Positions 1,084-34,337 of a stretch of 36,264 bases of DNA are shown piece by piece. Where the stretch lies: contig JALJEE010000608.1 of assembly GCA_023231475.1 (NCBI GenBank), positions 1-36,264 of the forward strand, written 5' to 3'. Each line of letters starts with the position of its first letter. Within the stretch, counting starts at the first letter, position 1. Source of the stretch: Seison nebaliae. Lineage: Eukaryota. The notes under the pieces are model-generated. The model searched no databases, had not been told where the DNA came from, and saw nothing but the letters and a program-made list of their open reading frames with translations. A program made the position numbers and the translations under genes.

Positions 1084-2782
1084 TTAATCGTTGTTTAATA
1101 AACTATAATCAGATTTAGTGTCAGTATGGGCAATAGATCGATTAAAATCGAAATTTGCATGTTTTGAAGCCAAACTACCTAATGGCAGAATGGCAATATT
1201 TGTTACATTTTGGTTTTGTGGAGGGGAAGTTTTGGTAATCTGGGGGAGATTATTTGCCAAAGATTTATTATTTGGTTTCGTTTCGAGTTTTGGATTCAAC
1301 CTTAATGCTTCAATTGGCAGTACTCTCCTTCGTCGTTTTGGTAATTTCGATCTTGCTTTCATATGAGAATAATACATTGCAAAATTTGATACGATAACTG
1401 GAACAGGTAAGGCGATACACAATACACCTACTACTGCACATACACCTCCAACTAACATGCCTGCTGCTGTTTTTGGAACCATATCACCATATCCAACTGT
1501 GGTAATTGTAACGATAGCCCACCATAAACCGATTGGTATACTTTCGAAATTATTGTTTGGATTATATTCGCTTCTTTCCGCATAGTACATTAATGACGCA
1601 AATATTACAATAAAAATAGCACCGAAGAAGACTAATAATGTCAATTCTTTCATACTGGCGTGGAAAGTGTGTATGAGAATTTTTAAACCAGAAGAATGTC
1701 TGGTCAATTTCAACAATCGCATTATTCTTAATATGGAAATGAATTCGATCCATTCCTGTTTCGTTTGTTCCGTTAACTTTACTATATAATCTGTGTAAAA
1801 TGCAACGGTTGCCACTACATCCATGATGTTGATTGGTGACGTAATAAATTGCCATTTATTGGGCGCGGCAAGTAGACGTATAATAATTTCAAAAAAGAAC
1901 CAAGCATTGCATACAATTTCGATGTAGAGGAACACATCATGTGGAACACTGTTATTTTGAGCGATAGTCCATCCTATCCTTTGTTGCTCTTCCGAATAAT
2001 TTTTATTGTTCGATTTATCATATTCTGTCACATTAGTAATTGGAGATGGAATTTTAAAATATGTTACATTACTGATATTCGTGATACGTAAACTTGGATG
2101 AGTTTTAAGACAAAATGAGAATATAGATAATATAATAAATAAAACACTTATGATTGATATTGTCTGGACAAAAGAGAAAAATTAGAGAATTTTAAATTAA
2201 AAAATGAAAAAATCGATGAACTTTAGCAGTTTTCGATGACGATGGTTCCTCAAATAATTGCCATAATATTGGTTTATATCTTTTGTACCAAGGTAATTGA
2301 CCAGAAAGATATCGATTATCATCTTCCCAACCAAACTTTTTTGCAACATCTTCATCAGTTGGTTTCTCATAATCCAAGTCCATATCTTCCAAAACTGATA
2401 AGGTTTCCTGTGTGTTTCTGTGTTGTGTATAAGTCATCCAACAACATGGCTCGACTTGATTAGCGTCAAGGCCCCAAAACTCGAGTTCCTCTTCAAATAA
2501 TGGTCCACAAACATCAGTGGGGTAATGTAATTTTCCAGTTCGATAATAATTCAAGATCTAAAAAAGAATTAAAATCATTTGATTAAAGAAGTGACGAATA
2601 ACTTGCGCAAATACTCCAGGATGACGATCGAAGAAATATTCATTGAGAACCGGATCGAAATTAGCTAAGTTTTCTGTTAATCTGGAAAGTCTAGTGGCTG
2701 GTATTTTTTTAAGAGTAAGTTTGTAAGATTCATGTCGAATCCCTCCCACGTTGAGAACAACTCGATTATCGTTATCCGACAT
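1084..2782 (-). CDS. Shaw: Shaw/Kv3-family voltage-gated K+ channel, paralog 1 (about 531 aa; exons 2782-2603, 2557-2222, 2163-1084)
   Basis: T1 domain ([13 protein letters not shown]...[41 protein letters not shown]), S4 ([13 protein letters not shown]), pore TTVGYGD and S6 PVPVIVSNF. Introns 2602-2558 (GTTATT..TAG) and 2221-2164 (GTTCAT..CAG) restore the frame. Confidence 0.96.
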
Positions 2783-11700: not shown

Positions 11701-14700
11701 TTAAATAAGTAGATGGGAGAATTGCAATTATTACGATGATAATTGTATCTGTTGATTCACATCGATTCACTTCCATGTTCATATCGTCGACCACTTGGAT
11801 AATCCTTCTTCAAATTGCTTATATTAAAATTATTACTTTAAAAAGCAATATTTGGAAGCATGATTGAACTCGTACGAAAGTGGTAGTTTCCGTCTGAACC
11901 TGTTCTTACAATATCCTGTTCCGCATGGAAGATCTTAACACTATATAAAGGAATTCCGGAAGGTAAAAGTAGAAAGATTAGATGCTATCATAATATAGTA
12001 ACTATATTTGTCATAAATCCAGAGGACAGATGACAAATCAATATCTCATAACGTTTAATTGCGACACAATTAATTGAGATTAGAATATAATACTTAAGAA
12101 AATTGTTTCGGAAGGATTAATGCTTTAGGTTGTAATATTCGAATATAGATTGTTAAAATTATTGGAAGGAAATACTTATTTCCAATGTCATTGGAGACCG
12201 ACGAACAAGCCGAAAACCCATTTCGATGGTAAAGAAAACAATAAAATATTGGAATATTTTAGAGTAATAAATAAAATGGCCTAAATTAATGGTTAATGCA
12301 TCTCCGAATATAAAAAATTAACGAGCTAATTGATTTCGTCGTATATTTGGTTGAATGAATTTTCCCAAGGCAAATTTTACTAGATATTTCAGACCTGCGA
12401 AGTATTTCATTTATTATTTAAGATTGATCCAGAAAAAAGATAAATAAATTATATAAAAAGTAAACAAACGTTAGAGCACAATATGATATATTATAAAAGA
12501 CTTAATAATAATTGGTATTAGGTATTAGAAATCAATTCCGATTTGGTTAATAGATATTATCGACGTATCTGAAGAGTTGAAATTCAATAATCTTCTCAAA
12601 AGGTAATATAAATCATTTTGCACATTCTTTTAGAACTTTTAGGTTTGAAGGACAATTCATCCAATTCACCTAACTCACTACCAATGCAATTCATTAACGT
12701 TAAAGAAAATATTATTTTAAGAATCTTTTTGAACATCCAGAAGATAATGGAAGAAGAGAAAGTTGAATTCATAAATCAGTTAGGTTGAATGATTGATCAT
12801 TCAAAGAATGTCTAACAAGATTCGATAGTATAATCTCTTACGTATAATATTTTGGTTAATTGAGAAATAATTATTGTAATTATCAATAGATTAGATATGA
12901 CATGATCGGAAAGTTTTAACCTTAAACAAATTGGAAAACAATTTTCTATGTTAATTGAATCTAATATAATGTGAATTTATTTAGGGAAAACGGAAAACTT
13001 TCTCACAAATCTTATTATTCTTCAGACAATAACCGAGGGAAAAAGGCCTATATTGACGGTTGAGACCTGTCAATTAGAGAAATGAGTAAAAAGTTCAAAA
13101 AGAAGAATGATTAAATTAATGTTGAAGTTGGAAATCAAATAAACTAATTGAATGAGGAGAATATGAAGATATAATGGAAGGAATGTTATTAGGAGTCCAA
13201 TTGCATCAGTTTTTATGGAAGCAAGATAATGATCATGTCTTAGTTGTCTAATTATAGGAGATGGTCCAATTTGCTCTTGTTCAAATAAGTAGAACTAATT
13301 TCCGATGGTTTGGTAATGATGATTCTATGAGAGAATGTTCTACTTTACATCTTCCTCCGCAAAAGAACGATATTTTGGAAAACAAGTTAATTCTTTAGAA
13401 AAGAAGAGAATATCTTTTTATTACTCTTCCACATTAGATGAAATAAGACTTTAGGCGTGCAAACCAAATTTCTTACAAATTATTGTATAACAAATGCACA
13501 ATAATAATAAAAAGGTAATCCAAAAAAAGGAATAAAAGTAATTTAATCCTACATGTACGTGTCTAATTGTAATGATAATATGCAATAATCATAATCAAAA
13601 TCATTCCAACCATATAGCAGAAGAAAGTAATAAGAACAATAACAAGAGTTTATGTGCACATACGTACGTACAGTATTCATACCAGTAGAATATTTCTTAT
13701 TTGCTTATTCTTATTTTTCATTCAATTAATATATTTCCTTATTTCCAATAAGTAACCAGAATTAATTTTTGTTATATTCCAGATTCCATTAAAGAAACTA
13801 TTAGGGAGAATTATTTCAATATCATTATATTCGTCAAATATAGAATATTACATAAACATATTCATCATCAATTGTTGAGAAAGAAAGAAAAGATTTCTTA
13901 TGTTATGGATATTGATTCAAGGTATTAATACAAATATATCGATAAATGAAGAAAGAAAGATATGATGATTGAATAATCATAATTTGTCGTAAGTTTAAAT
14001 AAAGTATATGATATCAATAATATGATGCCGTTGATACTTTATATGATTAGTATAATTCGATTAGTGAAAGTGTCGATTTCTCGTTCATTTTTAATATTAT
14101 GTTGAAAGAAGGGAATGAAAACATTTCGTCTAGTTGAACAACAAATGAAATTTTTTATTTCCCTTCTAATTTTTTCTTTGAATGATGAGCAGATGGAAAA
14201 CTGGTGAACTAAGAACCTTAGGAGGTTATCTGCACAAAATACATTTTATTAACATTTGTAGGACCGTAAGCGGTTAGTGGAAAACAGTAAGAAAAAATTT
14301 CAAATTGATACCTGTAAAATAATTGATATAAGGAAAGTAAATGTTACGAATCTTTCTAAATTTCGATGATGATTCCTATGTGAGATGTAGAAGGAATATG
14401 ATTAAGTTACAACTCTTGTTATAAAATTTCCTGTTGATGTAGCAAACTCAATTTTCTGTTGTTCACTCCGCTATTCTGTTTACATCAAATGATAATTTTA
14501 TTACGTCGATAGGCACGAATATTTCTCCATTTTATCTTGTTCCCAATTACTTTTTGCGTGTGCAAATAAATAGAAAATCAGCATACTAATATCTGATAAT
14601 ACTTTTCGTTCTTCATTTGTTTTCTTCTTCTTTCTCATTGTGTACATATTAGTTTCTTTTCAAAAGAAATGACCGAACATTTTTATGAAGACAAAAATAT

Positions 14701-14813
14701 CGAATTTCATTCCTTGATTAATATTTCCCATTTATTGATTAGATAATGATTGTTTGTTAAGAATAATCTTATTTCAGCGGCATACTAAATAATGAGTCAT
14801 CCATCATTATTCG

Positions 14814-16738
14814 ATGGCATCGGATTCAGATAATCGTGTCATATTAAATGTCGGTGGCATCCGCCATGAAACTTACAAAGCAACATTAAAAAAGATACCA
14901 GCAACACGTTTATCAAAATTATCTGAGAATCTTGCTAATTATGATGCACTTCTAAACGAATATTTCTTTGACAGACATCCTGGTGTATTCGGTCAAGTTA
15001 ATAAAGAATTTATTGTAAATTATTTATTGAATAAACTTCTTGTTAGGTATTGAATTATTATCGTACAGGAAAATTACATTATCCGACTGATGTGTGTGGA
15101 CCGTTGTTCGAAGAAGAACTAGAATTTTGGGGCCTGGATGCAAATCAAGTTGAACCATGCTGTTGGATGACGTATACACAACACAGAAATACACAAGAAA
15201 CATTGACAGTGTTAGATCGACTCGATTTAGATTCTGAAAAACCAACCGAAGAAGAGATCGCAAAAAAATTTGGTTGGGAAGATGATCGTGATTATCTGAA
15301 TGGAACGATGCCATGGTACAAAACAATAAAACCTAAAATTTGGCAATTATTCGACGAACCGTCATCATCACAGGCGGCAAGAGTTTGTGTCTTCTTTTTA
15401 CAATTCTATTATTTGATTATTGAATATTTATTCTACTTACAGGTTGTTGCTGGTATCAGTGTTCTGTTCATTGTTGTATCAATCTTATCGTTCTGTTTGA
15501 AGACGCATCCAGATTTGCGAGTTCCTCAATTAACTAATCGTACATTCCTTATTGATGGCAATAATACCTGGTCGTGGAAGATCGAGAAAGACACAACAAA
15601 ACCTCATGCCGTTTTCCTTTATATTGAGAGCATATGTAATGTATGGTTTACATTCGAAATAATTATCCGATTTATTGTTGCTCCATGTAAATTAACATTT
15701 ATGAAATCACCAGTGAATATTATTGATTTTGTTGCAACATTATCATTTTATATTGATTTACTCGTGTCCCGATTACAAATGAATCAGGATAATGAATTAT
15801 TAGAATTCATCTCAATCATTCGAATTATGAGACTATTGAAATTAACGAGACATTCATCCGGTTTAAAAATTCTTATTCATACATTCAAAGCAAGTATGAA
15901 AGAATTGACGTTATTGGTCTTCTTCCTCGTTATTGGAATCGTCATATTCGCTTCCTTAATGTACTATGCGGAGAGGACACAAGTTAATGAGAAAAACAAT
16001 TTTACAAGTATTCCCGTTGGCCTATGGTGGGCCATCGTTACCATGACAACCGTTGGTTATGGTGACATGGTACCCAGAACTTATTTGGGAATGTTAGTCG
16101 GTGGTGTTTGCGCCGTTATAGGTGTGTTGTGTATTGCATTACCAGTACCGGTAATTGTCTCCAATTTCGCAATGTATTATTCTCACACACAAGCGAGAAG
16201 CAAGTTACCGAAAAAACGCCGTCGTGTCTTACCGGTAGAAGCGGTGCGCCCAAAAACTATTCCGACAACGACCATATCAAACAAAATGTCAAAATTTGGT
16301 GGGAATACGAACAATAGTGCGAATAATATGGGAGTTGCTGCATTACCTCTCAAGATGTCGAATGCGATGCACAGAACTCCAATGATAATGCCATCAAATA
16401 CAAGTGGAGGTGCACCTCCATCAATTCATACGAATTCAAAGAAACATAATATTAATAAGAATAATGACAATAAATTAGAGAGTAAACGAAACTCGAAATC
16501 CGAAGGAAATCGAACGACAACTGGATTAGCTTCGGGTCTCCTATGTAATCCAGCCGCCACTATTAGTAATAAGAACAGTCAAGTTAAAGGATCGCCATTA
16601 ACATCGACATTACATGTGGAAACTGATGTTCGTACGGATTTTAAGATGGGAAATGAAACAACAAGGAAATACTCGACCAAAACTTTCAAGAATAATGAGA
16701 AAACTAATTCGAATGAACATCTCCTGGTAAAAATGTAA
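14814..16738 (+). CDS. Shaw: Shaw/Kv3-family voltage-gated K+ channel, paralog 2 (about 604 aa; exons 14814-14996, 15047-15382, 15443-16738)
   Basis: Same T1, S1-S6, TMTTVGYGD pore and PVP motifs as paralog 1. Introns 14997-15046 (GTTAAT..TAG) and 15383-15442 (GTTTGT..CAG) fall at the same codon positions as in paralog 1. Confidence 0.97.
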
Positions 16739-16875
16739 TTCCAAATTTCCATGTGATAATTACAATAAAAAAAGTTTTCAAAAAAAAGTCGATGTCCATT
16801 GAAGAAAATCTGACTAAAAAGATAAAATAAATGTGTTGGAAACTTGATTAACATCATTGGCAACATCATCCGGTG

Positions 16876-16913
16876 AATGAATTTGATGAATCGATTTTAT
16901 CATCAAATTCATT
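16876..16913. repeat. Perfect 14-bp inverted repeat (hairpin) downstream of Shaw paralog 2
   Basis: AATGAATTTGATGA (16876-16889), a 10-nt loop, then TCATCAAATTCATT (16900-16913). Confidence 0.75.
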
Positions 16914-17669
16914 TTGAATTTATGATAATATAAAAATTGATTCAAAAAGGTTTATTGATGTCAACAATGATTGATAATATGAATCTGGAGACATCTATTT
17001 CTCATAATTATTGCAATCTTGCCGATAATCTCGATAGTTCAATCAATAGAATTATTCATTTAGACTATCATTCTTCCTCGAATATACAAATTTCCAGTCA
17101 AATCAATATTCTCATCATTGTCAGAACCATCCAAAAAAATATATATATATTCATAATGCTGGTTGCGATATGGATGGATGGAATGCAAATCGAACTATTG
17201 TAAATGAATTCAAATCGTTTATTGTTTGAATTCTTCTTCTAAATATATTGTTTCTCATTCTCTATCTCTCTTTTCATTTTCCATTTGAAACCGATAAATC
17301 TTCATAATAATCTTTTTCAAACTTATTTCTCTATTTTCTTTTGAATTTCTGCTCTCTTTCTGGAAAAATAAAATCTTTAGATTCAAAAAATCATTTTCTA
17401 ACAACACAGGACACTCTTGACACTTTTAGAGAAATAATTCTTATTGAGATTATACGAAGGAAATACAGGTAGAAAGGGAAAGTTTCAAATCGATTGTTTA
17501 TTCGATTTATTTACATTTCCATCATTTCATGATCGCTGACCGTTTGGTAGTTGTGTGAAAAAAAAAATTAATTAGACAAGAAAAAAAAACATTCGATTAA
17601 ATTTTATTTTCAGTAAATAAATTTTAAATCATTCACTTCTCTTCTCAATGAAAATTAATTGATGAGAGA

Positions 17670-17985: not shown

Positions 17986-19540
17986 TCAAATTCTTCTCCG
18001 TTTCTTATTTGGATTGACAAATAAATCTTTATTTCCACCACCAAATCTTTTCGTCAGATTCTTCTCTAAACTCTTCTCGAATAATGGTTTCTCAATTTTT
18101 GTCGTATCTTCATTCGTCAAATGAGTATATTTAGTTTGACTTGCCTTACCAAAATTCTTCTTTTGCATTATTTGTGGCAATGTCGACTTGTCGAACAAAT
18201 CGTCCAATGTCGGTTCCATGGCATTTCGGTTAACAATCTCTTCTTCTTCATCCAGAAAGAAAGCACCACGATGATAATATTTTTGAAGGAACTTTATCTT
18301 TCCTTTCTTCTGAACATTTGTTCTCACTTTTTTAAAACCGATTCGATTCCGTTCTTCTTCTGTCATATCTCTCAATTCTTCTCGTTCTATTTTACTTCTT
18401 TCAATTTCCATCTCTTTCTCTCGTTCACGATTTATTCTCCCTAATTCACGTTCTCGCCATGCTGCTATTGATGCTTCATCATCTGAATCATCGTCCGTTA
18501 AAAAATCACATTGAACTTCAATTCCGTTTAATTTCAATGTTGTCTTCTCCGTCGTCAATTTTTCTTCTTCCTCCTTCTTAATTTTCACGACAATCGATCG
18601 CGTCTCCAACATTCGTGCTTTAATTCGTTGTTTCTCTTCTTTCTCCTTATTCTTCTTCTTCTCTTCTTCTATCTCCTTTTCCATCAATGTAATTCTTTCA
18701 CTCTTCTTAATGAAGACCGGTTTCATCTTTAAATGATTTGTTCCGTAAAAATGATTTGTAGAAGAATCTTCTTCTTCGTCTTCTTCTTCTTCTTCTTCAT
18801 CTTCGTCACTATCATCTTCTTCTTCAGATGATGATGATGATGATGATGACTCCACCAATTTTCCTTCTTCATCTGATTTATTTAATGTTAAATCTTTTGA
18901 ATTATTTTTCGATTCAATTAATTCTTTCCTTTGATTATCCATAACTTCCGAATTCAATTGTCGTATACGTGATTTCATCGGTTTAACTTTCACATTTCTA
19001 TTATCACTATCATTCTCATCCGTCTCATCCGTCTCATCTTCACTATTATCATCGTTATCAGAACTGGATTCTGATGATACATCTTCATCGTCATCATCCT
19101 CCACAATTTGTGGTTGTACACGTCGTCGTAGTAATCGTTGTGCACGAGGATCATTCAATTCAGCTTCTTTTACATTATCTAGATCAATTTCTTTCTCTTC
19201 TTCAACGTTCAAACGACGACGGACGTCGACAGAATCAAATGTCGAAATATAATTTTGATTTAATCCTTCAAATCTCTTCTTTGGAATCGATTTCTTTTCA
19301 TTATTCTCATAATCAATCTTCTTCAAACTTGTTCCTTTCTTCTCTTCTCCATCACCAATCGATTCAGGACCTCTATACCATCAGAATTATAAATGAGTGA
19401 ATAAATTATATTTAATTATAAAGAAAAAAAGTAATTAACTTTCCTGGAAAATATCGTTTTATTCTCACTTTCTTCATAGTGAATCCACCCTTGGGATTCG
19501 GCACCTGAATCGCACCAGCTGTTGATAATTGTGAACTCAT
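17986..19540 (-). CDS. MFAP1: Microfibrillar-associated protein 1 (spliceosomal B-complex factor, Spp381 family), about 495 aa; exons 19540-19440 and 19372-17986
   Basis: N-terminal STAGAIQVPNPKG..MKKVRIKRYFPGK and C-terminal AWRERELGRI..KGKIKFLQKYYHRGAFF..PTLDDLFDKSTLPQIMQKKNFG..QTKYTHLTNEDTT match MFAP1. Intron 19439-19373 (GTTAAT..TAG). Confidence 0.95.
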
Positions 19541-20630: not shown

Positions 20631-23600
20631 ATGATGGCAACAGATCAGCAAGTGAAATGCAACGGTCCTTCTCAAACTAAAAGATTACGAGAAGAAGTTT
20701 CTAATTTATCGACACCTGTACAGCATCATACAAGTTTCATTTGTTATTTTATTAAAAAACTTTTTTAATTTCATTTATTTGGAAAGATGAAGTGATTGAA
20801 AATGGACAATATCATCCTCAGAACAATAGTTCATTTATTGCTCCTCCCTCTAACTATCAAGTACCTAGTCAATTATATCTGCAACTCGTTCAACAACAAC
20901 ATCCACAACAATTACATCCAAACTTTCATCCAATGAATTCGAATGATGTTCGAATAATGCAACAACAACAGCAACCAGGTACGACACCGGCTAATACACC
21001 TCATCAATTATCGAATAATTTTAATCAATCATCTCAATCATCATCAACACAGCAATCACAACAACCGATACCGGTACAACGACCACCATCTCGAATCCAT
21101 CAACCATTATCAAATCCACCGATTGACAATAATTCCAATGGTCCTCTATTGACATCCACACCAATTGCCAATATGAATAGTAACAATTCTGTGAAAAGCA
21201 ACAACAACAACGTGAACAATACGAATAGTGTAATGATGAATAATAATAATGGTCGACCGGCAAATACGGTAATGACAATGAATCAAGCACGATTATCTGA
21301 TCGTTTTCAAGAAGCGTTTTCACTCGTTCGACAATTGGTCCAGATAATTCATTCTCAGAAATGTTTATTAATTGACCGATCGAAATCAGTGAATCATTGC
21401 AATCAAGCATTTTGTCCACAGCTCAAAGATCTTCTCATTCACATGGAACAATGTAAACAGAGAACGAATTGTAATCGTAATCATTGTACATCTGTCAGAA
21501 GACTATTGTTACATTGGAGGACATGTAATGGACGTTGTGATGTTTGTGCTGTTCTAATGACACGTTCACACGAACACATATTAGCTCAACCTTATCAGCC
21601 GATTAATTATGGAAATAATATGAATAATATGACACCGCCACTCAGTGCACAACAACAGCAAATGAATGCCACAAATAACATCCATCAACGAACTACGAAA
21701 GACAGAACGCCTTCGATTCCCGCATTCGTTAAACGGAAAGACATTACTGAAATTAATGATAAGAAGTGGCATGCACATGTCAATATTGAAGCGCGAACTC
21801 ATTTGGTGAATAAGATCATTTCAACAATCTTCCCAGATAATTGTCAAATAATACCAAATGATGCACGACTACCAAAGATCATCAATTATGCCAAGGCTGT
21901 TGAGCATCGTGTCTTTTCGGAAGAAGGTGATCGTAATAATTATTTCCGGAGATTAGCCGAAACCATTTTCCGAATTAAACAAGCCGTTGTGGAGAAGAAG
22001 TCGAGTATCAAAAATGTTGATGATGTAAGGAAAGTGATTATTAATGATAATCCACCAAATCATCCAATACCAAATAATGATATAGATCAAAAAATGAAAA
22101 TTATCGATAATACCATACCATTATCTACTACCATCATTACATCTGTCTCACAAATCACTACCACATCTACATCTATCATTAATTCTAATTGTGATACTTC
22201 AGTCACCATCTCCACATCAGTCACAACCGTCTCCTCTACATCGATGGAGTTGACACCAGCCAAAACCACCACCGTTTCCAAGACAATAACGGGAATGAAG
22301 GAATTGACGAAGAAGATTGCTGATTTGAGTTTTAAGAAGAAAATTTTCTTGAAAGAAGTTATCATAAAACATTTCTCACCAATAATCGACCGTTTATTCA
22401 ACATGCCCGAATCTGATGAATTTCGAGAGCCTGTCAATTGGCAAGATTTGAAAATTCCTGATTATCCGAAAATTATAAAAAATCCTATGGATTTGGGAAC
22501 GATTCGGAAACGCATCTTCGATGGATATTATGAAACGCCAGATAAAGTGGTGGATGATTTATGGTTAACTTTCCACAATGCTTGGATGTTCAATCGAAAA
22601 GGTCAGAGAGTTTACAAGAAATGTTCGCGATTGGCTGAAGAATTCGAAATGATAATTGATGAACCATTAAAGAATTTAGGTTATTGCTGTGGTCGTGATC
22701 ATCAATTCATGCCACAAGTATTGATGTGTTATGGACAAAATATGTCTTGTTCAATACCGAAAGATGGAACATATTATTTATGGAAGAATAATCATGTTAA
22801 TCAAGAGAATTTGGCTAATGAGAATTATATGTTCTGTGCCAAATGTTTCGAAGCAATTCATTCACCTGTCATCGCTTTAGGTGATGATCTTTCACAAGCA
22901 TTAGTAGAAGTGAATAAAGACGAATTCATAAAGAAGACGAATGATCAAATGGAAAAAGAAGAATTTGTTTTTTGTAAAATTTGTGGACGACGTAGTCATC
23001 GAATTTGTGTTCTTCATCTCGAACAGATCGAAGGCTTCTACATTTGTAAGAGTTGTGTTGATGACAGACAAGTTAAACGGCAACGGAATGAATTCCGTGC
23101 TAGAGGTTTAACTCATTTATTATAATAAATTATTTAAAGATTTGAATAAATTATTTTAAGATTTACCAAAAACCGAATTGAGTTCATTATTAGAAAGAAA
23201 AGTGAACGAGGAAGCAAATGCCATTGAAGGACGTGTCATTATTCGTGTTCTATCGTCTGTTGACAAACATGTTGAAGTTAATTTGATTAGAAAAATTTAT
23301 TTTCTTTCATTCTTCTTCGAAAGGTTCGTCCATTAATGCGACAACAATTCCCACAATTTCCTTTAAAATTTCCTTATCGTGCGAAAGCGATCTTCGCTTT
23401 TCAGGAACATGACAATGTCGATATTGTTTTTTTCGCCTTATTAGTTCAAGAATATGGAAGTGAATGTCCCGAACCAAATTCTCGGTTATATTTCATTCGA
23501 TTTGTTTGCTCCTAATGATTATTTCCAATTCTCTTAGACGAGTATATGTCTCATATTTGGATTCGGTTCATTATTTTCGAAGGAAACAATATCGGACGAG

Positions 23601-25134
23601 TTTGTATCATAAAATTCTCATTCATTATTTGGAACATGTAAAATCATTGGGATTTCGATATGCTCATATTTGGGCTTGTCCTCCATCAGAAGGTGACGAT
23701 TATATTTTCCATTCGCATCCACCTGAACAGAAAACGCCAAAACAAAAACGATTATGTGAATGGTATATTACCATGTGTCTGATGGCACAATTACAAGGAG
23801 CGATAGTTTGGAAGAAGGACATCTCTCAATATTTGGAAGACAAAGAAAATCTCGCCACTAAAATGCCATATTTCGAAGGAGATTTCTGGCCGTCCACTTT
23901 AGAAGAATGTATCAAAGAAGTGGAGGATGAAAAGGAACGATTGAAGAAAGAGATGGATGAAGGTAATAATGGTTTTGATGATGATAATTCGCCCAACATG
24001 ATGAATTCGATGAATGATCAAAAGAAATTCGGGAGAAGTTTATCGAAGAGTAAAAAGAATAAAAAGAATTCATTGTCGAAGAATAGTCGTTCTGGTGGGA
24101 AGAAGCGACAAGCAGTTGTTCAATGTGATCTTAATTTGAAAGTGAAGAGTGTAGTGGAGAAACATGCTAGTGTCTTCTTTGTTATTTGTCTTATCGATCC
24201 GCCAAGTGCACAAAATCTCGGTCCCATTCGTGATCCTGATCCGACGATGCATTGTGACTTAATGGATGGAAGAGATGTTTTCTTATCGACTTGTCGAGAG
24301 AAGCATTTGGAATTCTCATCGTTGAGACGTACGAAATTTTCGACGATGTCATTATTGCAAATCATTGCTATTCAAAATAATCATGATAGTGCAAACTTCA
24401 ATTGTAACGAATGTAAAATTCAAATGAAAGATCGATTCCACTGTACCAAATGTGACGATTTCGATTTGTGTACTTTCTGCCATCAATATGTGAAGCATGA
24501 ACACAAATTGGAATTCTGTTCAATTCAAGCAAGTACGAAATCGTTGGCAGACAAGAATGAAGTACTTCATATGGCACAAGAAGCGATCGTCCATGTTGCA
24601 CGATGTAAAAATGCAAATTGTCAGAGACATCTCTGTAGTCAAATCAAGAAGATTATGCGACATAGAGAAGTGTGTAAGCGGAGTGAAGCATGTCATGCTT
24701 GTCGTCGTCTGATGTCGATAGTGAAGACGCATGCTGAGAATTGTCCATTGGAAGGAGATTCTTGTCCAGTTTTGAAATGTGCCGAACAAAAGGCGAAATT
24801 ACGTCGTACTCGAGCGGCGGATCAAGCCATTACTAGACGTCGAATGAAAGGAATGAATCAGTTAATGAAAGGTACATCGAGTCATAATAATAGTACGAGT
24901 ACAACGGCTAGTACACCGTCAGCAAGAAATTCACCGTCATATGGTGGAAATGGAAATGATTCGAAATATGGAACGAAAGAATCAGCAGAAGTTGTACATC
25001 AACAAATGGGGAAACAAAATCATTCGATGAAAAATAATCAGAGAAATAATAATGATATAAATAATAATAATAATAAAGGTGGAGGAACATTTATGAGAGA
25101 TAATAATAATAATGGCCGAAGTAAAGATATGAGA

Positions 25135-25174
<40 letters not shown>

Positions 25175-26040
25175 TTAAAAACAATAATAATAATAATAAT
25201 AATAATAAGCAATCATTAACTTCTTCATCATCTTGTAATAAACCAAATTTTATACAACATCCCAACAATAACAATAATAATAATAATAATAATAATATGA
25301 TATATAATAATCGTCCAATAAATAATAATTCTAATGGAATGATGGATGTTAGATCTCCTGGAATGAGTAATCATTTAAATCCAAATAATACTCATAATAT
25401 TCCAAATAATAACAACAATAATGGTAATCATATGAATGTCAATTTGAGTAATCAGATTGCGAATGGAAATATGAATTATTCTTCTATCAAAACACAACAA
25501 CAACCAAAATTCTCTCCGAATTTTTCTAATCAAGCTTATTATGCATCAAATCGAATGCCTCAACAGCAACAACAACAGCAGCAACAGCAACTGCATTCTC
25601 AGCAACAACCTCAACCACCACCACAACCATACGGAATATATCACCAGAAACCGAATTTTTCATCACCTTTTATAGGCCATCAGAATCCGATGAATTATGG
25701 GAACATGGGACAAATGCATGGGCAAAATCCATCGAGAATGATGGCTCCCAACAGTCATATGCAGGATAATCATCCCATCAGACCACAACAAATGGTGAAG
25801 CAGGAGCCGGGAATGTATGGCGTTCAACAAATGCCAAATCATCCTCATCATCCACAACCACCTCAAAACTATCCGACCCATCCACAAATGGTGAATAATG
25901 GTAATTCGATGATGATGAATGGGAATGCTTATAATTCTGGAATTTATATGAATAACACTAATAGTATGGTGAACAATGCAAATATGAAAACTAAAGTCAT
26001 CAATAACAACAACAATAATAACAACATGAATAACAAATAA
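20631..26040 (+). CDS. CREBBP: CREB-binding protein / p300 histone acetyltransferase, about 1733 aa; exons 20631-20733, 20787-23105, 23161-23276, 23324-23484, 23538-26040
   Basis: TAZ1, KIX (KKWHAHV..RTHLVNKI), bromodomain (IPDYPKIIKNPMDL..NAWMFNRK), RING/PHD, HAT (YLDSVHYF, HIWACPPSEGDDYIFH, RLCEWY, PYFEGDFWP), ZZ and TAZ2 occur in canonical order. Four GTT..AG introns (20734-20786, 23106-23160, 23277-23323, 23485-23537) give one continuous frame. Confidence 0.97.
25138..25296 (+). repeat. (AAT)n microsatellite runs encoding poly-Asn in the CBP C-terminal tail
   Basis: Twelve uninterrupted AAT at 25138-25173 plus further AAT/AAC runs, all in frame with CBP. Confidence 0.9.
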
Positions 26041-26065
26041 ATCAATTCAGTCATTCTTATTACTT

Positions 26066-26108
26066 TACACACATACACACATACACACACAAAACAAACA
26101 AACAACAA
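26066..26108. repeat. Interrupted (AC)n followed by (AAAC)n microsatellite in the CBP 3' region
   Basis: acacacatacacacatacacacacaaaacaaacaaac read directly from the sequence. Confidence 0.7.
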
Positions 26109-27016
26109 CTATTTATCTGAACTAATAAAATATATATATAAATTTTATTTATATTATTCCTTTCCTCAATCATTTCTACTCTTCCTTTTTATTCATCATT
26201 TTCATCTCGTTCCTTCTCCGTCTTCATCCACAAAAGCCCATCATTCACCAACTTCAATAAAAAGAAAATCGTTTCCAACTAATTCCCAAAATAACTAATT
26301 CGGTTATTGCATCGATTGTTTTATTAAATCGTCTGCAGAATATCTCATATTCTTTATTATTACAATTAAACTTTCTCTTCCTTTACACATCAACATTATC
26401 ATCACACACACTCTCCATCATTCGTATCAATTATCGATCTTCTCATTACTTCACTTCTTTTTCCCTTCTCGTTGTATTTTATTTTCTGTTCTCCACTTTC
26501 ATTTTCCTTCGATTTTGATTTCTCTCATTTCCGACGAGAATTCTGTCAGACATACAAACTACTTTCGTTAAAACTTCTTTCACATCATCATCATCATTAT
26601 CATCATCTTCATCACTACTATATGTTCTAGTTTAATTAAAATCAATATTATTCAACTGGAATTTTTGTTAAAGTTTCTTTCTTTTATGTTTCCTCTTTTT
26701 TTTCATATTCCTATTTCTTTTGGATTACAGAAATGAATTTTTTTTATTTTCTTCTTTCTTCTCGTAACAATGCTGAATTGTTATCGTTCATCGAAACTTT
26801 AAATAATCAATCATAACATCATAACCTGATGGTGTCTGAATCATCAAATTGGAAATATGTGATTTATATCAGCCATATTCTTCCAAAGCGTCCCCCCTTT
26901 TTTCACACTCTATATATATAATTTTCATATTTTAATTTATTTTTAATTTATTCTACTTATATTAATCTAATTAAATTATAATTATATTCTCGTCTCTCTC
27001 TACATTTTTCTTCCAT

Positions 27017-29655
27017 TCAATCAATAGGAGCAAATTCTCGACGATTTAGTTCGTATAACGTCTTCATTTCTTGCATCAGATCCTTTTCTTCCAACTCCAA
27101 TAATCGATTACCGTCGAACCACGATTTCAGCATTCCATCTGCCGATTCCTCATAATCAACAATTGAAACCAAATCGTTTTCTTCTATTTTTGTGTTGGCT
27201 TGAACGATCAATTTCCTTGACAATCGTTTTGCAATCACAATCTTTCTCCATTCCATGAACTTTTCGTTGACCGTTGAATATTTCTTGTACATAGAAATTC
27301 CTTCCTTCTTATCACCGATACTCTTGTACGTTTGTAATTTGACGAGGAAATCACTAATAGCCTTAAATCCTTTAGAGAGAATATCAGGAAGATTCATTCG
27401 AACACGAAGATCCGATTGATCTTCCTCGCCCTTTATCTCAACAATCTCTACTGCACCAGCTTCTAAAAGTACTTGTAAGATAACATATCTCGCTTGCATA
27501 TGAGCCTGTCGCCATCGTTGAGTTTCAGGAGTATAGTACTCCAATCCACAAAGACCAGCACGACACATACTCAACCAATTGTTAAAAATCAAATGATCCA
27601 TTTTCTCTGGAGCGATACCGAATAATCTGTTGGAGAAAATTTGAATAGAATTTGAATGACATTAAAATGAAACTTCAAAATATCTTTGTTCACACAAAGA
27701 TATAATCCCACACATTCTGCTCGACATTCTTCATAAGATGATGAAACTTCTCCGAACATTCCATCGTATCCTTCGCCTGAATTATAATAAGTAGTCACTT
27801 TCTCCTTTGTTAATGGATTAATTGTCGATTCTGCATCGAAATTAAATGTTCCATTCTTTAACTACGACAAAAACAATCAACAAATAAAAAATTTAATGTG
27901 TGAACTTTCCGGAATAATTTTCCCGTTCCATGACCCAACAATTCATGGAGACCCACCTGCACATCGAACGCTGGTATTCGATAGTCGGAAAATAATTCTT
28001 TCTCGTTCTCATCGATAAAAGTGATTCGATCTAAATCTTTTTCTTTCAACGAAGCTCCAATGACATTTCCGAGAGAAACATTTTTAAATCCTTCATTCTG
28101 ACGAACTTCATCGTCTGAAATCATCACAAATTATTAAGGAACAAATAATAAGAATGAGAGAATAACAATTGGGAATATTGATTCCTGCAGGAACACCACT
28201 ACCACCGAATGCCAATATATCTAACGACGTGAAATCGGGTTTAAGGAATCGATCTTTCTCATACTCCTTTGACCATGGCAATGTCGATATATATTTCTCC
28301 GCATTTTTTACTAAATCTCCAAATACTTTCGACCGTTCAGCATTCACCATTGAAACAAATCCTTCGAATTCTCCTCGTTGACCAGTCGGGTCGCGATATG
28401 TTTCAATAAATCCGATATAACTAATGAAAATTCCATTAAATCAATGAATATAATAAACACGAATAAATTATTTAACCTTTCTACTGACGGTCGAGTATCT
28501 AAAATCCAATTACGACTACCATCAATGTGGGCGACTAATGAACCGGTTCGGAACGATTCAATATATTTCTCTAACATTTCCTTTTGATAATCATTGGCAG
28601 AATTTTTCTAACAATTTCAAATTACATACGAAACATTTCATAATTCAAATATGGAACTTGTGCCTTTTCCAAAAAATCTGCACAACGTTTCATTAAAATA
28701 CAGTGATCGCCACGTACTATACGGAATTTCCTTTCTTTGAATTGTATCGGTGTAAATAAATCAAATCCATCAATATTTGCTATATATTCAACATAGGATA
28801 ATTATAGAAATTATTTAAATGCTCCAAAACTTTTTGTACTTCCTTGAGAGGCAATAATAATCTTTAATTCACCAGATGATCTATCTTTTGCTAATCTCGT
28901 ATTATACGGTTCAATGTGCTGTAATTGATGATAAATATAATTAATGAATTTGAGTACATGTAAATATTAAACTCTTTCACTCATAAACACTTTAGCTGCG
29001 TCTGCATCTTCTTCCGTGATATTGGAAGTCAAATAAGTAGTCGTGCCTTTACCATCATATCCTAATTGACGTTTAATCGGTTCTAACGAGAAAATGTCGT
29101 CCACAACCTCTTTTAATTCATTTTCTTCAAAAAGAACAACATCACGAAATATCTCCGTATAAAGTTTAAGATATTTTTCCTTTATCAAAATAATTTGAAG
29201 AAAAGAAAAATAATAATTTCAAAAACTTTTGGAATATTTGGAACAATCTTCGTATCGCCAAAACCTTTATAGTTCCCCATATAACATAAGACACCCGAAT
29301 AATAGAAGATTAATGCTTGGTATTCCTCTTCGGTCAATACTTCGCAACATTTCTTCTTCATCTCTTCCATTGACGACACCGATCGAAAAGTGGAGAACAT
29401 CAGCAAGAAAATGGCTGGTGATTCCACCGACGTCTACAGAGAAAAAAGAAAAGTTTTGAGAAAAGAAATTCATAAAAGAAATTGTCGAACTTGATACAAA
29501 GTGATCAGACTTCCATACCATGTCGCCTTCGCCATATAATGAGCATATTGTTTCTGCTTATTCGTCAAACGTTCAAATGCTTGTCTACAACTCAAAAAAG
29601 TGAATTTTGTATCTTTTCCCACTTCGAACAACGACATCTCATCCTCCTTATTCAT
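27017..29655 (-). CDS. DPP3: Dipeptidyl peptidase III (peptidase M49), about 726 aa, 10 exons (29655-29491, 29433-29227, 29179-28973, 28918-28831, 28779-28658, 28607-28477, 28420-28167, 28114-27906, 27861-27674, 27626-27017)
   Basis: Catalytic HELLGH and EECRAE motifs, plus [49 protein letters not shown] and [10 protein letters not shown]. Nine GTT..AG introns give a continuous frame. The start ATG is uncertain (29655 or 29637). Confidence 0.96.
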
Positions 29656-30326
29656 TATTTTATTAATTTCCAAATTGGAAAACTTTCTAAATTAAATTTT
29701 CAATGAATGTCGGAAAGAAAACGTGAATGGGAAAAATTGGTAGAAGACAAATAAACTGAAACGTTCCTAGATGATGTTTCACAGATGAGCCGGAACGAAG
29801 AAAGAGTTTTGAGAAATTTCTTATTAACATTGCAAACACAAAGCTTCTTTGTGAATTGTCCTAACATAAGAAAAATTTCAAATCATATTCCAATAACTAA
29901 CAATGTAAAATGAAATAAGCGAATTTTACATATTAGAAATTACTTTAAGAATTCTCAAATCAACTTATAACTGTTAGCAGTCAATTTTTAAGTACCTCAT
30001 ATTTTCTGGGTTTTGTCAGAATTATTATTATCGTTGATTAATTTAATTTTTCCTTGATTGTGAAATTGATTTTACCGAAAATAATTGATCTCGATCTATA
30101 GTTGATGGTTTTTTCAGTACTATATTCTTCTAATTCTTTTTAATTCGAAATACTGTGCAATATCTATTCAAATAAGTAATTGGCAGGTGAATAATAAAAT
30201 AAAGTTAAAAAAACTTACGATTGATGTTGGAAGATGATTTATTTTTTTCGGCAAGTTTAAATTTTATGTTTAAACTCAACTTGTGAATCTACCATCCATC
30301 GAAACTTCATTTCACTTTTCCATAGT

Positions 30327-32105
30327 TAGGTGTCCCGTGAATTGAGACACATTTTTCTCCACAACAGAGACAATATTGTTTCCTTTCTTTATTTCTTTTT
30401 TTTTTTTGCTGTAGATGTAAATCCCTATAGATAAATAAAAATTAAAAATTCACGACATTGGTCGTTGGTTATTAGTTCACGGCATCTTGCGATATGATTT
30501 TTGAGATTGTCGGGAAACAAGTATACGAAGGAGAATTCATCTATCTTGCATTGTACAACCGGGTAGGCTTCGGAAGAGTGTAATACGAACAGAAAAAGGA
30601 CAATGGAGACGTAAGAGGTAACAAATCGTTAAAAGAAGGAATAGGAAATTCTGAAGCATCCATCTTCTCTAGTAAGGAAAGATACTGGTTTATCAACAAA
30701 ATCGGAAACGGAAGAAGATCGACAATGGAGAACATAAATGCTCTTGAAAAGGAGCACTTACAACCTAATAAACTTCGAAATTCGAAGTTCGAATGTATCG
30801 ATTATATGCTCGATCTAAAGCGTACATTGATTTCATTGAAAAGGATATAGCTGCCTGTAGGTCGTAGAAATCGCAGCAAAAAGTATGAAACAACTTCATT
30901 TTTAGAGAAATCGGAAAGTATTTACAACGATGATTAAGTGAAAAGCTCTAATGAACTTGCATCTAATATGATCGACAGTTGCAGAACTCTTTTTCTTACA
31001 GTCTAAATAACAACCAAGAGATTTGCTGTAATTTCATTTATATTCATTAATCTCTTAATATTTCTGGAGGATCGATAATAGGAATATCTCTTTCATTCAG
31101 TTTAATATTCGTCAACAATTTAGATTTCGAATTATTACATTTTATGCCACATCTCACAAGTAGGGCTGGGGGAATCCATGATCCTTAAATGAAAAGGATA
31201 AGTAGGAGCCACAGTCATACTTAGGATCGATCCAACACGTCGTTTGAAGTCGATCCTTCTCAACTTGAAATATTTTATTGAAAATAACTTTAAATTTTAT
31301 CTAAACTGTGTATAATTTTCGACATTAATCTAATATTATAGTATGAAGTTATACATGTTAAAGGTTTATTTTTTAAGGGCTACAAGATGGTTTGATTTGT
31401 TTTGCATTTAAATTCATATTTTTTCTGACATTTCAGTAATTTTGTAAAAAAAATTACTTTTCTAAAATATGATTCTATTTTTTCTAAATTGTACTGAATT
31501 ATCAGAAAAACTTGTACACTGTACAAGTTATCCTATTTTCTTATTAATTTGCACCGAGGGGATTTGATTTTATAAATAAAAAAAAAAAAAAATCAGAGAA
31601 ATGAGTTGGAGAATATAAATTTGAAAATTTTCATGAGAAATGAAACTTGAATTAAATGTAATTACATTTGTAAATGTAGAACTCTGAACTTGGTGGCTGA
31701 ACGTTCAGAAATAAATACACTTTCAACAAAAAATTGGCTATTTTTCAAATTTTTTCACAAATAATTTATTTCTTATTAAAGATCGCTATTTATTAGATTA
31801 CACGTATCTAAAAGGACGATCGTTGGTTTAAAGAAAACCAAATTGAATATATGGATTGGCCCGCTAATAGTTCTGATTTAAATGTGATAGAGGAAATTTG
31901 GAGATCGTTGGCACGTTCGGTATATGAAGAAATGGTACCATTCGAGAGTGTGGAACCACTGAAAAGGAAAATTCAAAATAGTTGGAAAAAATTACCAGTT
32001 GAATTAATTCAAAAACTTGCTTCATCTTTTCCGAAACGAATGTCTTATGTTCTACAGGTACACGGTGATTTCGTCTCCCAAGAATTCTTTAATGTTTCAA
32101 ATTAA
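30327..32105 (+). mobile_element. Degenerate Tc1/mariner-superfamily DNA transposon relic (extent uncertain)
   Basis: Transposase C-terminus at 31801-32105. TIR-like TAGGTGTCCCGTGAATTGAGACAC at 30327 and stop-interrupted basic fragments near 30500-30850 may belong to the same element. I found no matching right TIR. Confidence 0.5.
31801..32105 (+). pseudogene. Tc1-like DDE transposase C-terminal fragment
   Basis: WFKENQIEYMDWPANSSDLNVIEEIW matches the Tc1 WPxxSPDLNPIEN(L/V)W motif. It is followed by the typical L..KI..W..LP...IQKL..SFPKR...V....G tail. A frameshift lies between HVSKRT and WFKEN, and the N-terminal part of the DDE domain is missing. Confidence 0.88.
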
Positions 32106-32484
32106 AAGGATGTTGAATAAGAGGTCGTGCTGGTTTAGTTTAATTCTAATGTATATTTATAATGATTATACAATCATCAATTTGAGATGAGTGAAAATAT
32201 GAAAAACAGAAATTAATTTATTTGAATTTTCGGAAGGTCTTTGTCGAGTTAATTCGTATTCCATCTTCTCTGAATCTTCTTGTGGCTAATACCATTTAAA
32301 TTAGGTTAAGTTTTATTCAGTTTACTTCACTTAAGTTATTGATTAATTTTAAATTTATAAAGAACTTATAAAATTTATGTAAATGGTTGGAAATAGTTAT
32401 GAACGAACGGAGTTTGGCACAAAAGAATGTTAAACTAACAATAACAATAGAAAAGAAACAGAATAGAATTCAGTTCGTTAGTGG

Positions 32485-34337
32485 TCAAAAATCAGAATAT
32501 GGATTTACTATTGCAGATTTAGTACGACTTCGAGTATTATAAGACTTTTTTATGGTTTCTATAGTAAATTTAAGAGTTATCTTGGTCAAACATAAAATAT
32601 AAAATAACTTTTTTTGGTTAATTTGTCGGTGGTGTGTTGTGTGGAAGATTTTGAATTATTATTCAATTCTTCAATACTAAACAAAGAAGACTCGTTTTCA
32701 TTCATTCTTTCTCTTATACTTTCCATCAGAGTTCGACTTTTATTGTGCGATATTAAAGTAGAACATTGTTCTGTGTTACTATTCTCTTCATCTAATAGTT
32801 TGAGATTGACATTCATAAATCTCTCAATACTCGTCATCAACACAATTAAATCTTTATCTTTAATTCTTGTGTTCATCTTCATCCATTGAACGAATCCAAT
32901 TCGAGAATTATCTATTCTCACCAATAATTCTAAAATATCAGAAAATTCCAAAATATTCTTTTTCTGTTAAAATGCCAATTATGAATTTTGTCTTGTTAAA
33001 TTTAACTTTTAAATCACACGTCACAAGTCTATTAATTCCTTCAATCTGATTTATTTTCGGATTATCTTCTATATTACAATCACTTAAATTCACTTTCTTC
33101 TTCTCCGACTTTGTTATTGAAGTTTTCGAAATTATTCTAGGACTTTTAGTTCGTAGAATGTCTGGAGGAATTATCCTAACAGTTTCTTCATCTACTAAAG
33201 TTTTAGTTATTGATGTTTCCATTGGCAATTCATCATTTATAGAATCCATTTGATTTATTCTTCTTATCTTTATCGAATCTCCTCGACAAGATATTTTACT
33301 ATTAACATTCTTTAACCTTTTAATAATGACATTTGCCGGTTTTCTGGTATTATTCATTTTTGTAACTGTTGAAGGTTTATAATATGATGGATTGAGTGAT
33401 TCCTATAAAGTATTTTATGAAAATAAAAAATGTCTAATTTTAACTGTTAATTTGGATGTATTATCTAATTCCGAATTATTTTCCATATTTAATTCATTCT
33501 TATAATTTTTCATTGATTTCAAATGAAAAGATGTTTCATTCTTCGTTCGATCGTTCAATAATTCTGTAGATGAATTTAATTTCCGCTTATTTTCTTTGCG
33601 CAATTCCATATCTTTCAATTCTGGATTAATGGTTCGCAGACGAAAAGTTGAAAGTGAAATTTCTTCAGATATCTTCAAAAATTTATTGAAACTTCAAAAA
33701 AATAACAAGAAAACTTCATTTTCATGACATTGACATATTCCGGATAAGGTTTCCGACGAGGACTCATCACATGAACATAATTCTTCATCAGATTCCTTTA
33801 TTTTGAATTGTAAATAAAAATCTTCTTATTAAATGTTCTTAAATTAACTTTAGATTTGGATGTATCAATATCTGACATTTGATCACTATTTATCGTGGAA
33901 TCTTCACTACTTTCTTCTTCCTCTGTAAATCTCATTTTTTTCGAATATATTTCATCATCATCTTCTGACGATTCTTCTAATTTATGTTTGAGGTTTTTCT
34001 TAATTTGATTTGATATATTCGATTTGATAATACTACCATCATCTTCTTTCTTACCTACCTCAACTTCACCTAATTCAGATGGACATACCACTGGTAACCG
34101 ATGTTCTACTCCCTCATCATCAGAAATGATGAGAATTCCAGTAGTTTCCTCGTCATTCAATTTAACATTCAATCCATTTGTCATTCGCAATTCGTAAATT
34201 TCTTCGATTCCATTTTTATTGTCCAATTTAAAGACGACATTTCTTCTGTCTAACCCATTTAGGTTACAGAAAACGTTTTCTCCACTTCCATCATCCCCTG
34301 CACCACGACCATCACCTTCTTCAATATTCAACATCAT
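32485..34337 (-). CDS. Hypothetical orphan protein, about 540 aa, 6 exons (34337-33849, 33795-33715, 33672-33445, 33402-33007, 32963-32609, 32558-32485)
   Basis: Four collinear minus-strand ORFs plus two short exons join into one stop-free frame using five 42-53 nt GTT..AG introns (33848-33796, 33714-33673, 33444-33403, 33006-32964, 32608-32559). The protein is charged and S/E/K/N-rich, with no family recognised. Confidence 0.75.

What the first reader, a model, noticed from the sequence alone, without database searches (positions are those of the whole stretch)
2221..33849. Exon ends are A-rich (AA|GTT) instead of AG|GT
Seen: the last exon base is A in 19 of 23 introns, G in 3 and T in 1. 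Typical ends are CAA|, AAA|, GAA| and AGA|, even where synonymous CAG, AAG or GAG would give the canonical -1 G. Established: -1 G pairs with U1 C9, and the uridines of U5 loop 1 contact the exon -1 to -3 positions. Inference: with no information at +4 to +6, specificity may have moved to exon A's pairing with U5 loop 1 or a U1 variant with U at position 9. Alternatively U1 ACUU could bind AA|GU in a shifted register. Caveat: A-ending codon bias explains part of this.
Basis: partly seen in the sequence, partly recalled or inferred. Interest (0 to 1): 0.7.

Follow-up and report, generated by a model that had tools for sequence, protein, structure and literature searches.

The report
Rotifer relative rewrote its splice donor
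In the tiny marine animal Seison nebaliae every predicted intron in this stretch starts with GTT and most follow an exon ending in A rather than the usual G, likely because the U1 RNA that finds intron starts has changed its own sequence to match, though that RNA has not been seen.

Summary
The window is a Seison nebaliae contig (NCBI names). Six genes carry 24 predicted introns of 42-70 nt; 19 match NCBI models, none is RNA-checked. The last exon base is A in 20, G in 3, T in 1 and C in 0, and +3 is T in 24 of 24. All 14 phase-0 exon ends finish in A, against 0.73 for synonymous A/G twins inside exons (P=0.015; 0.03-0.07 in stricter versions). Loss of the canonical -1 G is clear, but preference for A over G is only modestly supported. 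The -2/-3 A's are largely inherited Lys/Gln/Glu codons. Other animals keep G at the orthologous Shaw intron (10 of 10 loci). Bdelloid-like rotifer loci also show A at phase-0 ends but start GTA, so invariant +3 T is the sharper Seison trait. Best guess (0.38): a co-evolved U1 (A6, U9), as with Entamoeba U1. Rivals are drift, U5/U6 reading and a +1 register. No Seison snRNA was reachable. The scan noted GTT donors earlier on other DNA.

The parts
1084..2782 (-). Shaw/Kv3 potassium channel paralog 1, 531 aa, 2 introns
   Evidence: equals NCBI P0056; Pfam Ion_trans
2558..2602 (-). Shaw1 intron 1, phase 0, after Gln; -1 A, +3 T
2164..2221 (-). Shaw1 intron 2, phase 0, after Lys; -1 A, +3 T
14814..16738 (+). 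Shaw/Kv3 potassium channel paralog 2, 604 aa, 2 introns
   Evidence: equals NCBI P0051; exons abut at residues 59/60 of PDB 3kvt
14997..15046 (+). Shaw2 intron 1, phase 0, after Gln; -1 A, +3 T (orthologous intron has -1 G in 10 of 10 metagenome loci)
15383..15442 (+). Shaw2 intron 2, phase 0, after Arg; -1 A, +3 T
17986..19540 (-). MFAP1 (spliceosomal B-complex protein), 495 aa, 1 intron
   Evidence: Pfam PF06991; PDB 5o9z_K
19373..19439 (-). MFAP1 intron, phase 2, in Lys; -1 A, +3 T
   Evidence: only frame-keeping candidate
20634..26040 (+). CBP/p300 acetyltransferase, 1732 aa, 4 introns
   Evidence: Pfam TAZ, KIX, bromodomain, RING, PHD, HAT, ZZ; homologs
20734..20786 (+). CBP intron 1, phase 1; -1 A, +3 T; boundaries uncertain (alternative donor 20743 has -1 T and +3 T; alternative acceptor 20792)
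23106..23160 (+). CBP intron 2, phase 1, in Asp; -1 G, +3 T
   Evidence: top homology score
23277..23323 (+). CBP intron 3, phase 0, after Glu; -1 A, +3 T
   Evidence: top homology score
23485..23537 (+). CBP intron 4, phase 2, in conserved Arg; -1 G, +3 T
27017..29830 (-). Dipeptidyl peptidase 3 (M49), 761 aa, 10 introns
   Evidence: equals NCBI P0001; all 10 junctions are also the top score against non-Seison homologs
29687..29756 (-). DPP3 intron 1, phase 2, in Gln; -1 A, +3 T (outside the conserved region)
29434..29490 (-). DPP3 intron 2, phase 0, after Gln; -1 A, +3 T
29180..29226 (-). DPP3 intron 3, phase 0, after Lys; -1 A, +3 T
28919..28972 (-). DPP3 intron 4, phase 0, after Arg; -1 A, +3 T
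28780..28830 (-). DPP3 intron 5, phase 1, in Thr; -1 A, +3 T (weak homology margin)
28608..28657 (-). DPP3 intron 6, phase 0, after Gln; -1 A, +3 T
28421..28476 (-). DPP3 intron 7, phase 2, in Ser (Ser in 20 of 33 homologs); -1 G, +3 T
28115..28166 (-). DPP3 intron 8, phase 1, in invariant Tyr (33 of 33 homologs); -1 T, +3 T
27862..27905 (-). DPP3 intron 9, phase 0, after Lys; -1 A, +3 T
27627..27673 (-). DPP3 intron 10, phase 2, in Lys; -1 A, +3 T
32485..34337 (-). Orphan gene, 540 aa, no relative among 1.84 billion representatives, 5 introns
   Evidence: NCBI P0049
33796..33848 (-). Orphan intron 1, phase 0, after Lys; -1 A, +3 T
33673..33714 (-). Orphan intron 2, phase 0, after Glu; -1 A, +3 T
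33403..33444 (-). Orphan intron 3, phase 0, after Thr; -1 A, +3 T
32964..33006 (-). Orphan intron 4, phase 0, after Lys; -1 A, +3 T
32559..32608 (-). Orphan intron 5, phase 1, in Lys; -1 A, +3 T

Best explanation
Seison's predicted introns here all begin GTT and mostly follow an exon-end A, likely because its U1 snRNA has co-evolved, with a predicted A at position 6 (facing +3 U) and U at position 9 (facing -1 A, tolerating G by wobble). Shown: the donor pattern (purine at -1 in 23 of 24, A in 20; U at +3 in 24), the loss of +4 to +6 signal, and G at the orthologous site in other animals. Inferred: the U1 helix has moved towards the exon (about -3 to +3, five or six stacked pairs), and unchanged U5 loop-1 uridines would then take over the A-rich exon end at hand-over. 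The ancestral Lys/Gln/Glu codons would have switched G to A synonymously, helped by A-ending codon bias. Short intron length (42-70 nt) and the acceptor would supply the rest of the specificity.
For: +3 A, the best partner of a canonical U1, occurs in 0 of 24 donors, so something appears to reject it. With a canonical U1 C9 and almost no +4 to +6 pairing, -1 G should be favoured, yet it is used at 0 of 14 sites where it is synonymous. Three of the four non-A ends sit in conserved residues. Canonical U1 does not separate the 24 real donors from 686 unused GTs (duplex AUC 0.45); either single variant fails too (0.47, 0.42); the double variant gives 0.74 and a mean run of 5.2 stacked pairs, but it was designed from the consensus, so this shows sufficiency only. 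Inside exons, GTT after a purine is depleted (A 50 vs 70, G 25 vs 40) and after a pyrimidine is not (42 vs 41, 83 vs 80), as expected for cryptic-donor avoidance with a U partner. The orphan gene has A at 5 of 5 ends against 0.40-0.44 background. Precedent: Entamoeba and Mastigamoeba U1 changed to match their donors (10.1101/2022.06.08.495308, parts 1-4 read).
Against: No Seison U1, U5 or U6 was seen (no genome; none in the window). The A-over-G excess is modest (P=0.015-0.07) and rests on 14 sites. Bdelloid-like loci also have A at phase-0 ends with ordinary GTA starts, so -1 G may have relaxed before any U1 change. Most lineages with atypical donors kept a standard U1 (same preprint; PMC10581693 passages). 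The slight A excess at +5 (12 of 24, P=0.035) is not predicted, since it would face U1 C4. The exon-depletion z of about -3 stands against a spread of 2 over all 256 4-mers (ranks 7-14), and GGTA and CGTA are depleted too.
Confidence: 0.38

Rival explanations
1. Relaxation and drift: the -1 G constraint was lost early in rotifers, and A-ending codon bias turned inherited CAG/AAG/GAG exon ends into their A twins. A is not preferred over G, and +3 U is a separate change in the machinery.
For: Homologs have Lys/Gln/Glu at the junction codons. A-twin usage is already 0.73. In bdelloid-like L053 the 2 unambiguous phase-0 ends (and 2 ambiguous ones, probably) are A where the bias is 119/131=0.91. 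Exonic GTT is depleted after G as much as after A. The homology-anchored subset is not significant (P=0.072).
Against: 14 of 14 A has P=0.015-0.029 under this model. The orphan gene has 5 of 5 A. C never occurs at -1 and T only at an invariant Tyr.
Confidence: 0.25
2. U1 pairing matters little or is protein-assisted in these very short introns; the donor is chosen at hand-over. U5 loop-1 uridines read the A-rich exon end, and U6 (unchanged, by a G-U pair, or with an altered ACAGA box) reads +3 U.
For: U5 loop-1 pairing compensates weak U6 pairing, shown by suppressor U5 in S. pombe (PMC8163875 passages; PMC11732430 parts 1-2). GUUUGU can pair with a standard U6 ACAGA (preprint). Cyanidioschyzon splices without U1 (PMC10158995 passages). 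Information here lies at -2, -1 and +3.
Against: The described U5 class is AG//GU, with G at -1, and one model pairs -1 G with U5 C39 (PMC8283771 passages). An unchanged U6 does not explain why +3 A is never used.
Confidence: 0.2
3. A canonical U1 binds one base shifted (+1 register): U10 pairs -1 A, C9 pairs +1 G, A7 pairs +3 U, and the two pseudouridines pair +4/+5 A. A rare human mode would have become the rule.
For: It needs no snRNA change and explains -1 A and +3 U at once. It is the best register for canonical U1 by pair count (5.17 real vs 3.56 for unused GT and 4.07 for unused GTT), and A at +4/+5 is 23 of 48 vs 0.30 (P=0.008, one of several post-hoc tests). The register is shown in human cells and by melting (PMC4856993 passages). 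The lead came from earlier scan notes.
Against: The anchoring +6 G is present in 1 of 24, +7 U is at background, -2 is A (18) not C (3), and the mean stacked run is only 2.4. With a canonical U1, ordinary GTA donors should still work, but 0 of 24 are seen.
Confidence: 0.13
4. One reading: U1 nucleotides 3-6 bind AA|GU four bases upstream of the normal register.
For: It gives the longest stacked run for canonical U1 (3.5 vs 2.4 for GTT decoys).
Against: Its further predictions fail: -3 U 2, -4 G 3, -5 G 4 and +3 A 0 of 24. Total pairs barely exceed decoys (4.79 vs 4.24), and it cannot explain invariant +3 U.
Confidence: 0.03

Closest known systems
Entamoeba GUUUGU donors with co-evolved U1 (ACAAAC), and the Mastigamoeba U1 variant (bioRxiv 10.1101/2022.06.08.495308; parts 1-4 of 9 read)
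   Same: Near-universal U at +3 where most eukaryotes have a purine; a whole-lineage transformation of the donor.
   Different: Entamoeba is intron-poor with a rigid +1 to +7 motif. Seison here has 4 introns per gene, little signal at +4 to +6 (+5 G in 2 of 24) and a changed exon-side base. Its U1 is unseen.
U5-class 5' splice sites AG//GUNNN (PMC11732430 parts 1-2; PMC8163875 and PMC11347140 passages)
   Same: Weak U6-side signal with information on the exon side; A at -2 and -3.
   Different: -1 is A, not G (G in 3 of 24); +3 is fixed U; it is the only class seen, not one of two.
+1 shifted U1 register at atypical human donors (Roca and Krainer 2009, not read; known through PMC4856993 passages)
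   Same: -1 A, U at +3, some A at +4/+5.
   Different: The +6 G and +7 U anchor and -2 C are missing; in humans these sites are rare.
Bdelloid-like rotifer loci L053/L056, L061, L064 (unnamed; sister to the Brachionus clade in the tree)
   Same: Introns of about 50-63 nt, weak +4 to +6, A at phase-0 exon ends.
   Different: +3 is A (once G) and never T in 14 unambiguous introns; G is common at phase 1/2 ends.

Membership tests
Major (U2-type) spliceosomal introns | GT...AG termini that restore the reading frame | tested here: met
   24 of 24; 19 equal NCBI models
Major (U2-type) spliceosomal introns | No minor-type donor (A at +3 followed by a C-rich run; motif recalled) | tested here: met
   +3 is T in 24 of 24; C at +5/+6 in 3 and 2 of 24
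Major (U2-type) spliceosomal introns | Removed from RNA | not testable with these tools
   No RNA holder listed; laid runs behaved as DNA
Entamoeba-type donor with co-evolved U1 | Near-universal U at +3 | tested here: met
   24 of 24; chance 1.5e-10 from base after GT in the window, 4e-7 from intron composition
Entamoeba-type donor with co-evolved U1 | Rigid +4 U, +5 G, +6 U in an intron-poor genome | tested here: not met
   +4 T 9, +5 G 2, +6 T 11 of 24; 24 introns in 6 genes
Entamoeba-type donor with co-evolved U1 | U1 pairing region changed to match | not testable with these tools
   No genome held; no snRNA in the window
U5-class donor AG//GUNNN | Exon-side information with weak +4 to +6 | tested here: met
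   -2 0.51 and -1 0.79 bits against 0.21, 0.19 and 0.04
U5-class donor AG//GUNNN | G at -1 | tested here: not met
   3 of 24; 0 of 14 at phase 0
+1 shifted-register donor | -1 A, +3 U, A at +4/+5 | tested here: met
   20 of 24, 24 of 24, 23 of 48
+1 shifted-register donor | +6 G and +7 U anchor | tested here: not met
   +6 G 1 of 24; +7 T 13 of 24, equal to background
+1 shifted-register donor | Rescue by suppressor U1 in the shifted register | not testable with these tools
   needs experiment

The most novel reading that the evidence does not exclude
Seison is an intron-rich animal whose main spliceosome flipped the near-universal donor on both sides of the cut (AG|GTA to AA|GTT) across the whole genome, through a U1 snRNA rewritten at positions 6 and 9, dragging exon-end codons with it.
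Probability: 0.33. Interest if true: 0.85.

Novelty: new variant of a known kind. Interest (0 to 1): 0.62.

Why it matters
Donor signals are known to be rewritten together with U1 in intron-poor amoebae. An intron-rich animal would have had to shift a great many donors, including coding bases. Because -1 G is gone while -2/-3 A stay, Seison separates what U1 reads from what U5 and U6 read, which is the open question in the two-class donor literature. The test is cheap: find U1, U5 and U6 in a public assembly and count all annotated donors. It also matters in practice, since gene finders trained on AG|GTA would score these donors poorly.

Tried and rejected
No whole genome was held, so no genome-wide count and no snRNA search could be run. 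Rfam found no snRNA in the window. No RNA holder was listed. Three laid runs gave no intron-like joints and behave as DNA, and a fourth laid nothing; this says nothing about expression. The Seison CBP and MFAP1 annotations were not retrieved (one search returned only fish CBP and bromodomain proteins), so five junctions lack an annotation check. The Atlas look-up for L053 failed on a frame slip and was not repeated. Two further L053 Shaw introns were not resolved and two L053 introns had two candidates; all were left out of the count of 14. Five extra loci run through the spliced aligner gave some doubtful 30-33 nt introns and were not used. Annotation artefact was rejected: boundaries were chosen by frame and homology without motif weight. 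Minor-spliceosome introns were rejected because +3 is T. No clear branch-point consensus was seen (CTAA in 2 of 24). Literature searches listed no paper on Seison or rotifer donor consensus. The library lacks most subscription papers; bioRxiv supplements are closed; supplement 2 of PMC8351084 was not opened. Seison is in the species list of PMC10639083, but its main text does not mention it. Place look-ups in earlier findings were empty.
Full report
Identity. The last DPP3 exon matched one protein at 100%, named by NCBI as Seison nebaliae SNEBB_002531 on a 36,264-base contig. Both Shaw channels and the orphan gene carry neighbouring Seison names. Seison is an epizoic member of Rotifera-Acanthocephala with compact genes and about 32-34% GC (PMC8351084, passages). 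No whole genome was held, so all Seison counts come from this window.

Annotation. ORFs and Pfam gave two Shaw/Kv3 channels, MFAP1, CBP/p300, DPP3 and an orphan. For each junction I listed every GT/GC-AG pair that keeps the frame and, where homologs were held, ranked the pairs by protein similarity with no motif weight. All 10 DPP3 top candidates equal the NCBI model, with small margins for introns 1 and 5. The Shaw models equal P0056 and P0051, and the first Shaw2 junction joins residues 59 and 60 of PDB 3kvt. The orphan equals P0049 apart from the first Met. CBP introns 2-4 win on homology, MFAP1 has one candidate, and CBP intron 1 is uncertain. How the NCBI models were made is not known to me, and no RNA was available, so the junctions are predictions.

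The observation. In 24 introns of 42-70 nt, -1 is A 20, G 3, T 1, C 0; -2 is A 18; -3 is A 13; +3 is T 24; +4 is A 11, T 9, C 4; +5 is A 12, T 7, C 3, G 2. Phase-matched expectation for -1 A is 8.6 (P=2.4e-6), but this mixes in amino-acid identity. Homologs have Gln, Lys or Glu as the commonest residue at all 10 phase-0 junction codons tested, so the -2 A is largely the inherited part of the ordinary exon end. The fair test is the synonymous one: 14 of 14 phase-0 ends are A where interior twins are A in 834 of 1143 (P=0.015). It is P=0.029 in next-base-G context, and 10 of 10 with P=0.072 in the 16 homology-anchored introns. Phase 1/2 gives 6 of 10 A (P=0.13). Of the four non-A ends, three lie in conserved Ser, Tyr and Arg, and one (CBP intron 2) does not. 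So G is no longer the rule, and A is probably, not certainly, preferred.

Controls from other animals. A metagenome scan kept 80 of 300 Shaw loci. At the intron after the conserved Gln, 10 of 10 loci that have it end the exon in G, while both Seison paralogs end in A. Seven loci with a nearby phase-1 intron also have G. At the second junction 20 loci have an intron: G 13, A 6, C 1, with four of the six A's in rotifer-clade loci. +3 T occurs in 3 of these 37 introns. Many loci are near-duplicates and most are GC-richer (0.41-0.50), so this control is not composition-matched. L053, L061 and L064 form a clade (100/100) sister to Brachionus and relatives; I call them bdelloid-like, without a name from any call. 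In their 14 unambiguous introns +3 is never T. All 4 phase-0 ends among them are A (three are the same orthologous site), in a background of 0.91 A twins for L053, and G is common at phase 1/2. This counts against -1 A as a Seison invention and singles out +3 T.

An independent look. Shuffling synonymous codons within genes, exonic GTT is depleted after A (50 vs 70) and after G (25 vs 40), but not after C (42 vs 41) or T (83 vs 80). The purine share is 0.375 vs 0.476 (0 of 1000 shuffles as low, also in 150-codon blocks), the reverse complements are not depleted, and GTA and GTG show no such purine shift. This fits avoidance of cryptic purine|GTT donors. The z values of about -3 must be read against a spread of 2 over all 256 4-mers, and the test does not separate A from G.

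Pairing models (U1 5' end as printed in PMC9311317 and PMC4856993 passages). Canonical U1 pairs real donors no better than 686 unused GTs (AUC 0.45). The +1 register, a lead from earlier scan notes, explains -1 A, +3 U and a mild +4/+5 A excess (23 of 48, P=0.008, post hoc), but lacks +6 G (1 of 24) and does not explain the absence of GTA donors. A U1 with A6 and U9 gives about five stacked pairs and AUC 0.74, which is circular because it was built from the consensus. The motif alone is not sufficient: AA|GTT marks 16 real and 23 unused sites, so intron length and the acceptor must contribute.

Mechanism. Two facts argue for changed machinery: +3 A is never used, and -1 G is never used where it is free. 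A co-evolved U1 accounts for both and has a precedent in Entamoeba and Mastigamoeba, although several other lineages with atypical donors kept a standard U1 (10.1101/2022.06.08.495308, parts 1-4 of 9; PMC10581693 passages). U5 loop-1 compensation is established (PMC11732430 parts 1-2 of 7; PMC8163875 and PMC11347140 passages), though the register at -1 is disputed (PMC8283771 passages). I put the co-evolved U1 at 0.38, drift at 0.25, hand-over reading by U5/U6 at 0.20, the +1 register at 0.13 and the upstream register at 0.03; the first three can overlap.

Novelty. Nine paper searches listed nothing on Seison or rotifer donor consensus. Passages of PMC10125929, PMC11347168, PMC13161344, PMC10599564, PMC10639083 and PMC10158995 did not describe it, and supplement 1 of PMC8351084 had no hit for intron, splice or snRNA. 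Subscription papers and closed supplements could still hold it. The scan had noted GTT donors in other genomes: as a second class after non-G exon ends, and in Bonamia; these notes are unchecked. Verdict: a real, lineage-specific donor consensus, a new variant of a known kind, resting on 24 predicted introns, with the mechanism open and cheaply testable. Interest 0.62.

Noticed in passing
window, acceptors of the 24 introns: AAG acceptors in 6 of 24 (TAG 12, CAG 6), more than I recall for most animals; first base of the next exon is A in 14 of 24; no clear branch-point consensus.
   Followed up: partly
window 1084-2782 and 14814-16738: Two Shaw/Kv3 paralogs point away from each other across 12 kb with no clear gene between them. 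They share both intron positions, and both hit Rfam RF00485, the potassium channel editing signal.
   Followed up: partly
window 30377-31650: High-copy repeat: summed contig depth of 370-1870 against about 14-30 in single-copy genes, with many variants.
   Followed up: no
window 31812-32105: DDE_3 transposase fragment below the Pfam cut-off, in a multi-copy zone.
   Followed up: no
window 32485-34337: The orphan gene region has about twice or more the single-copy depth and a second diverged contig over 32930-33159, so it may be duplicated.
   Followed up: no
window 12000-13400: Broken frames that by eye resemble a decayed reverse-transcriptase element (motif recalled; two short ORFs there had no Pfam hit).
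   Followed up: no
window 820-901: A tRNA gene on the minus strand; a second tRNA lies near the right end of the window.
   Followed up: no
window 1-190: Several head-to-tail copies of a unit of about 30 bases, seen by eye.
   Followed up: no
coding sequence of the six genes: Runs of four A are strongly avoided relative to synonymous shuffles (z about -9, the most depleted of 256 4-mers).
   Followed up: no
L053 6-917 and 12725-13809: The bdelloid-like locus carries an intronless 260-aa gene that looks hydrophobic by eye and a three-intron ankyrin-like gene (label by eye) next to Shaw.
   Followed up: partly
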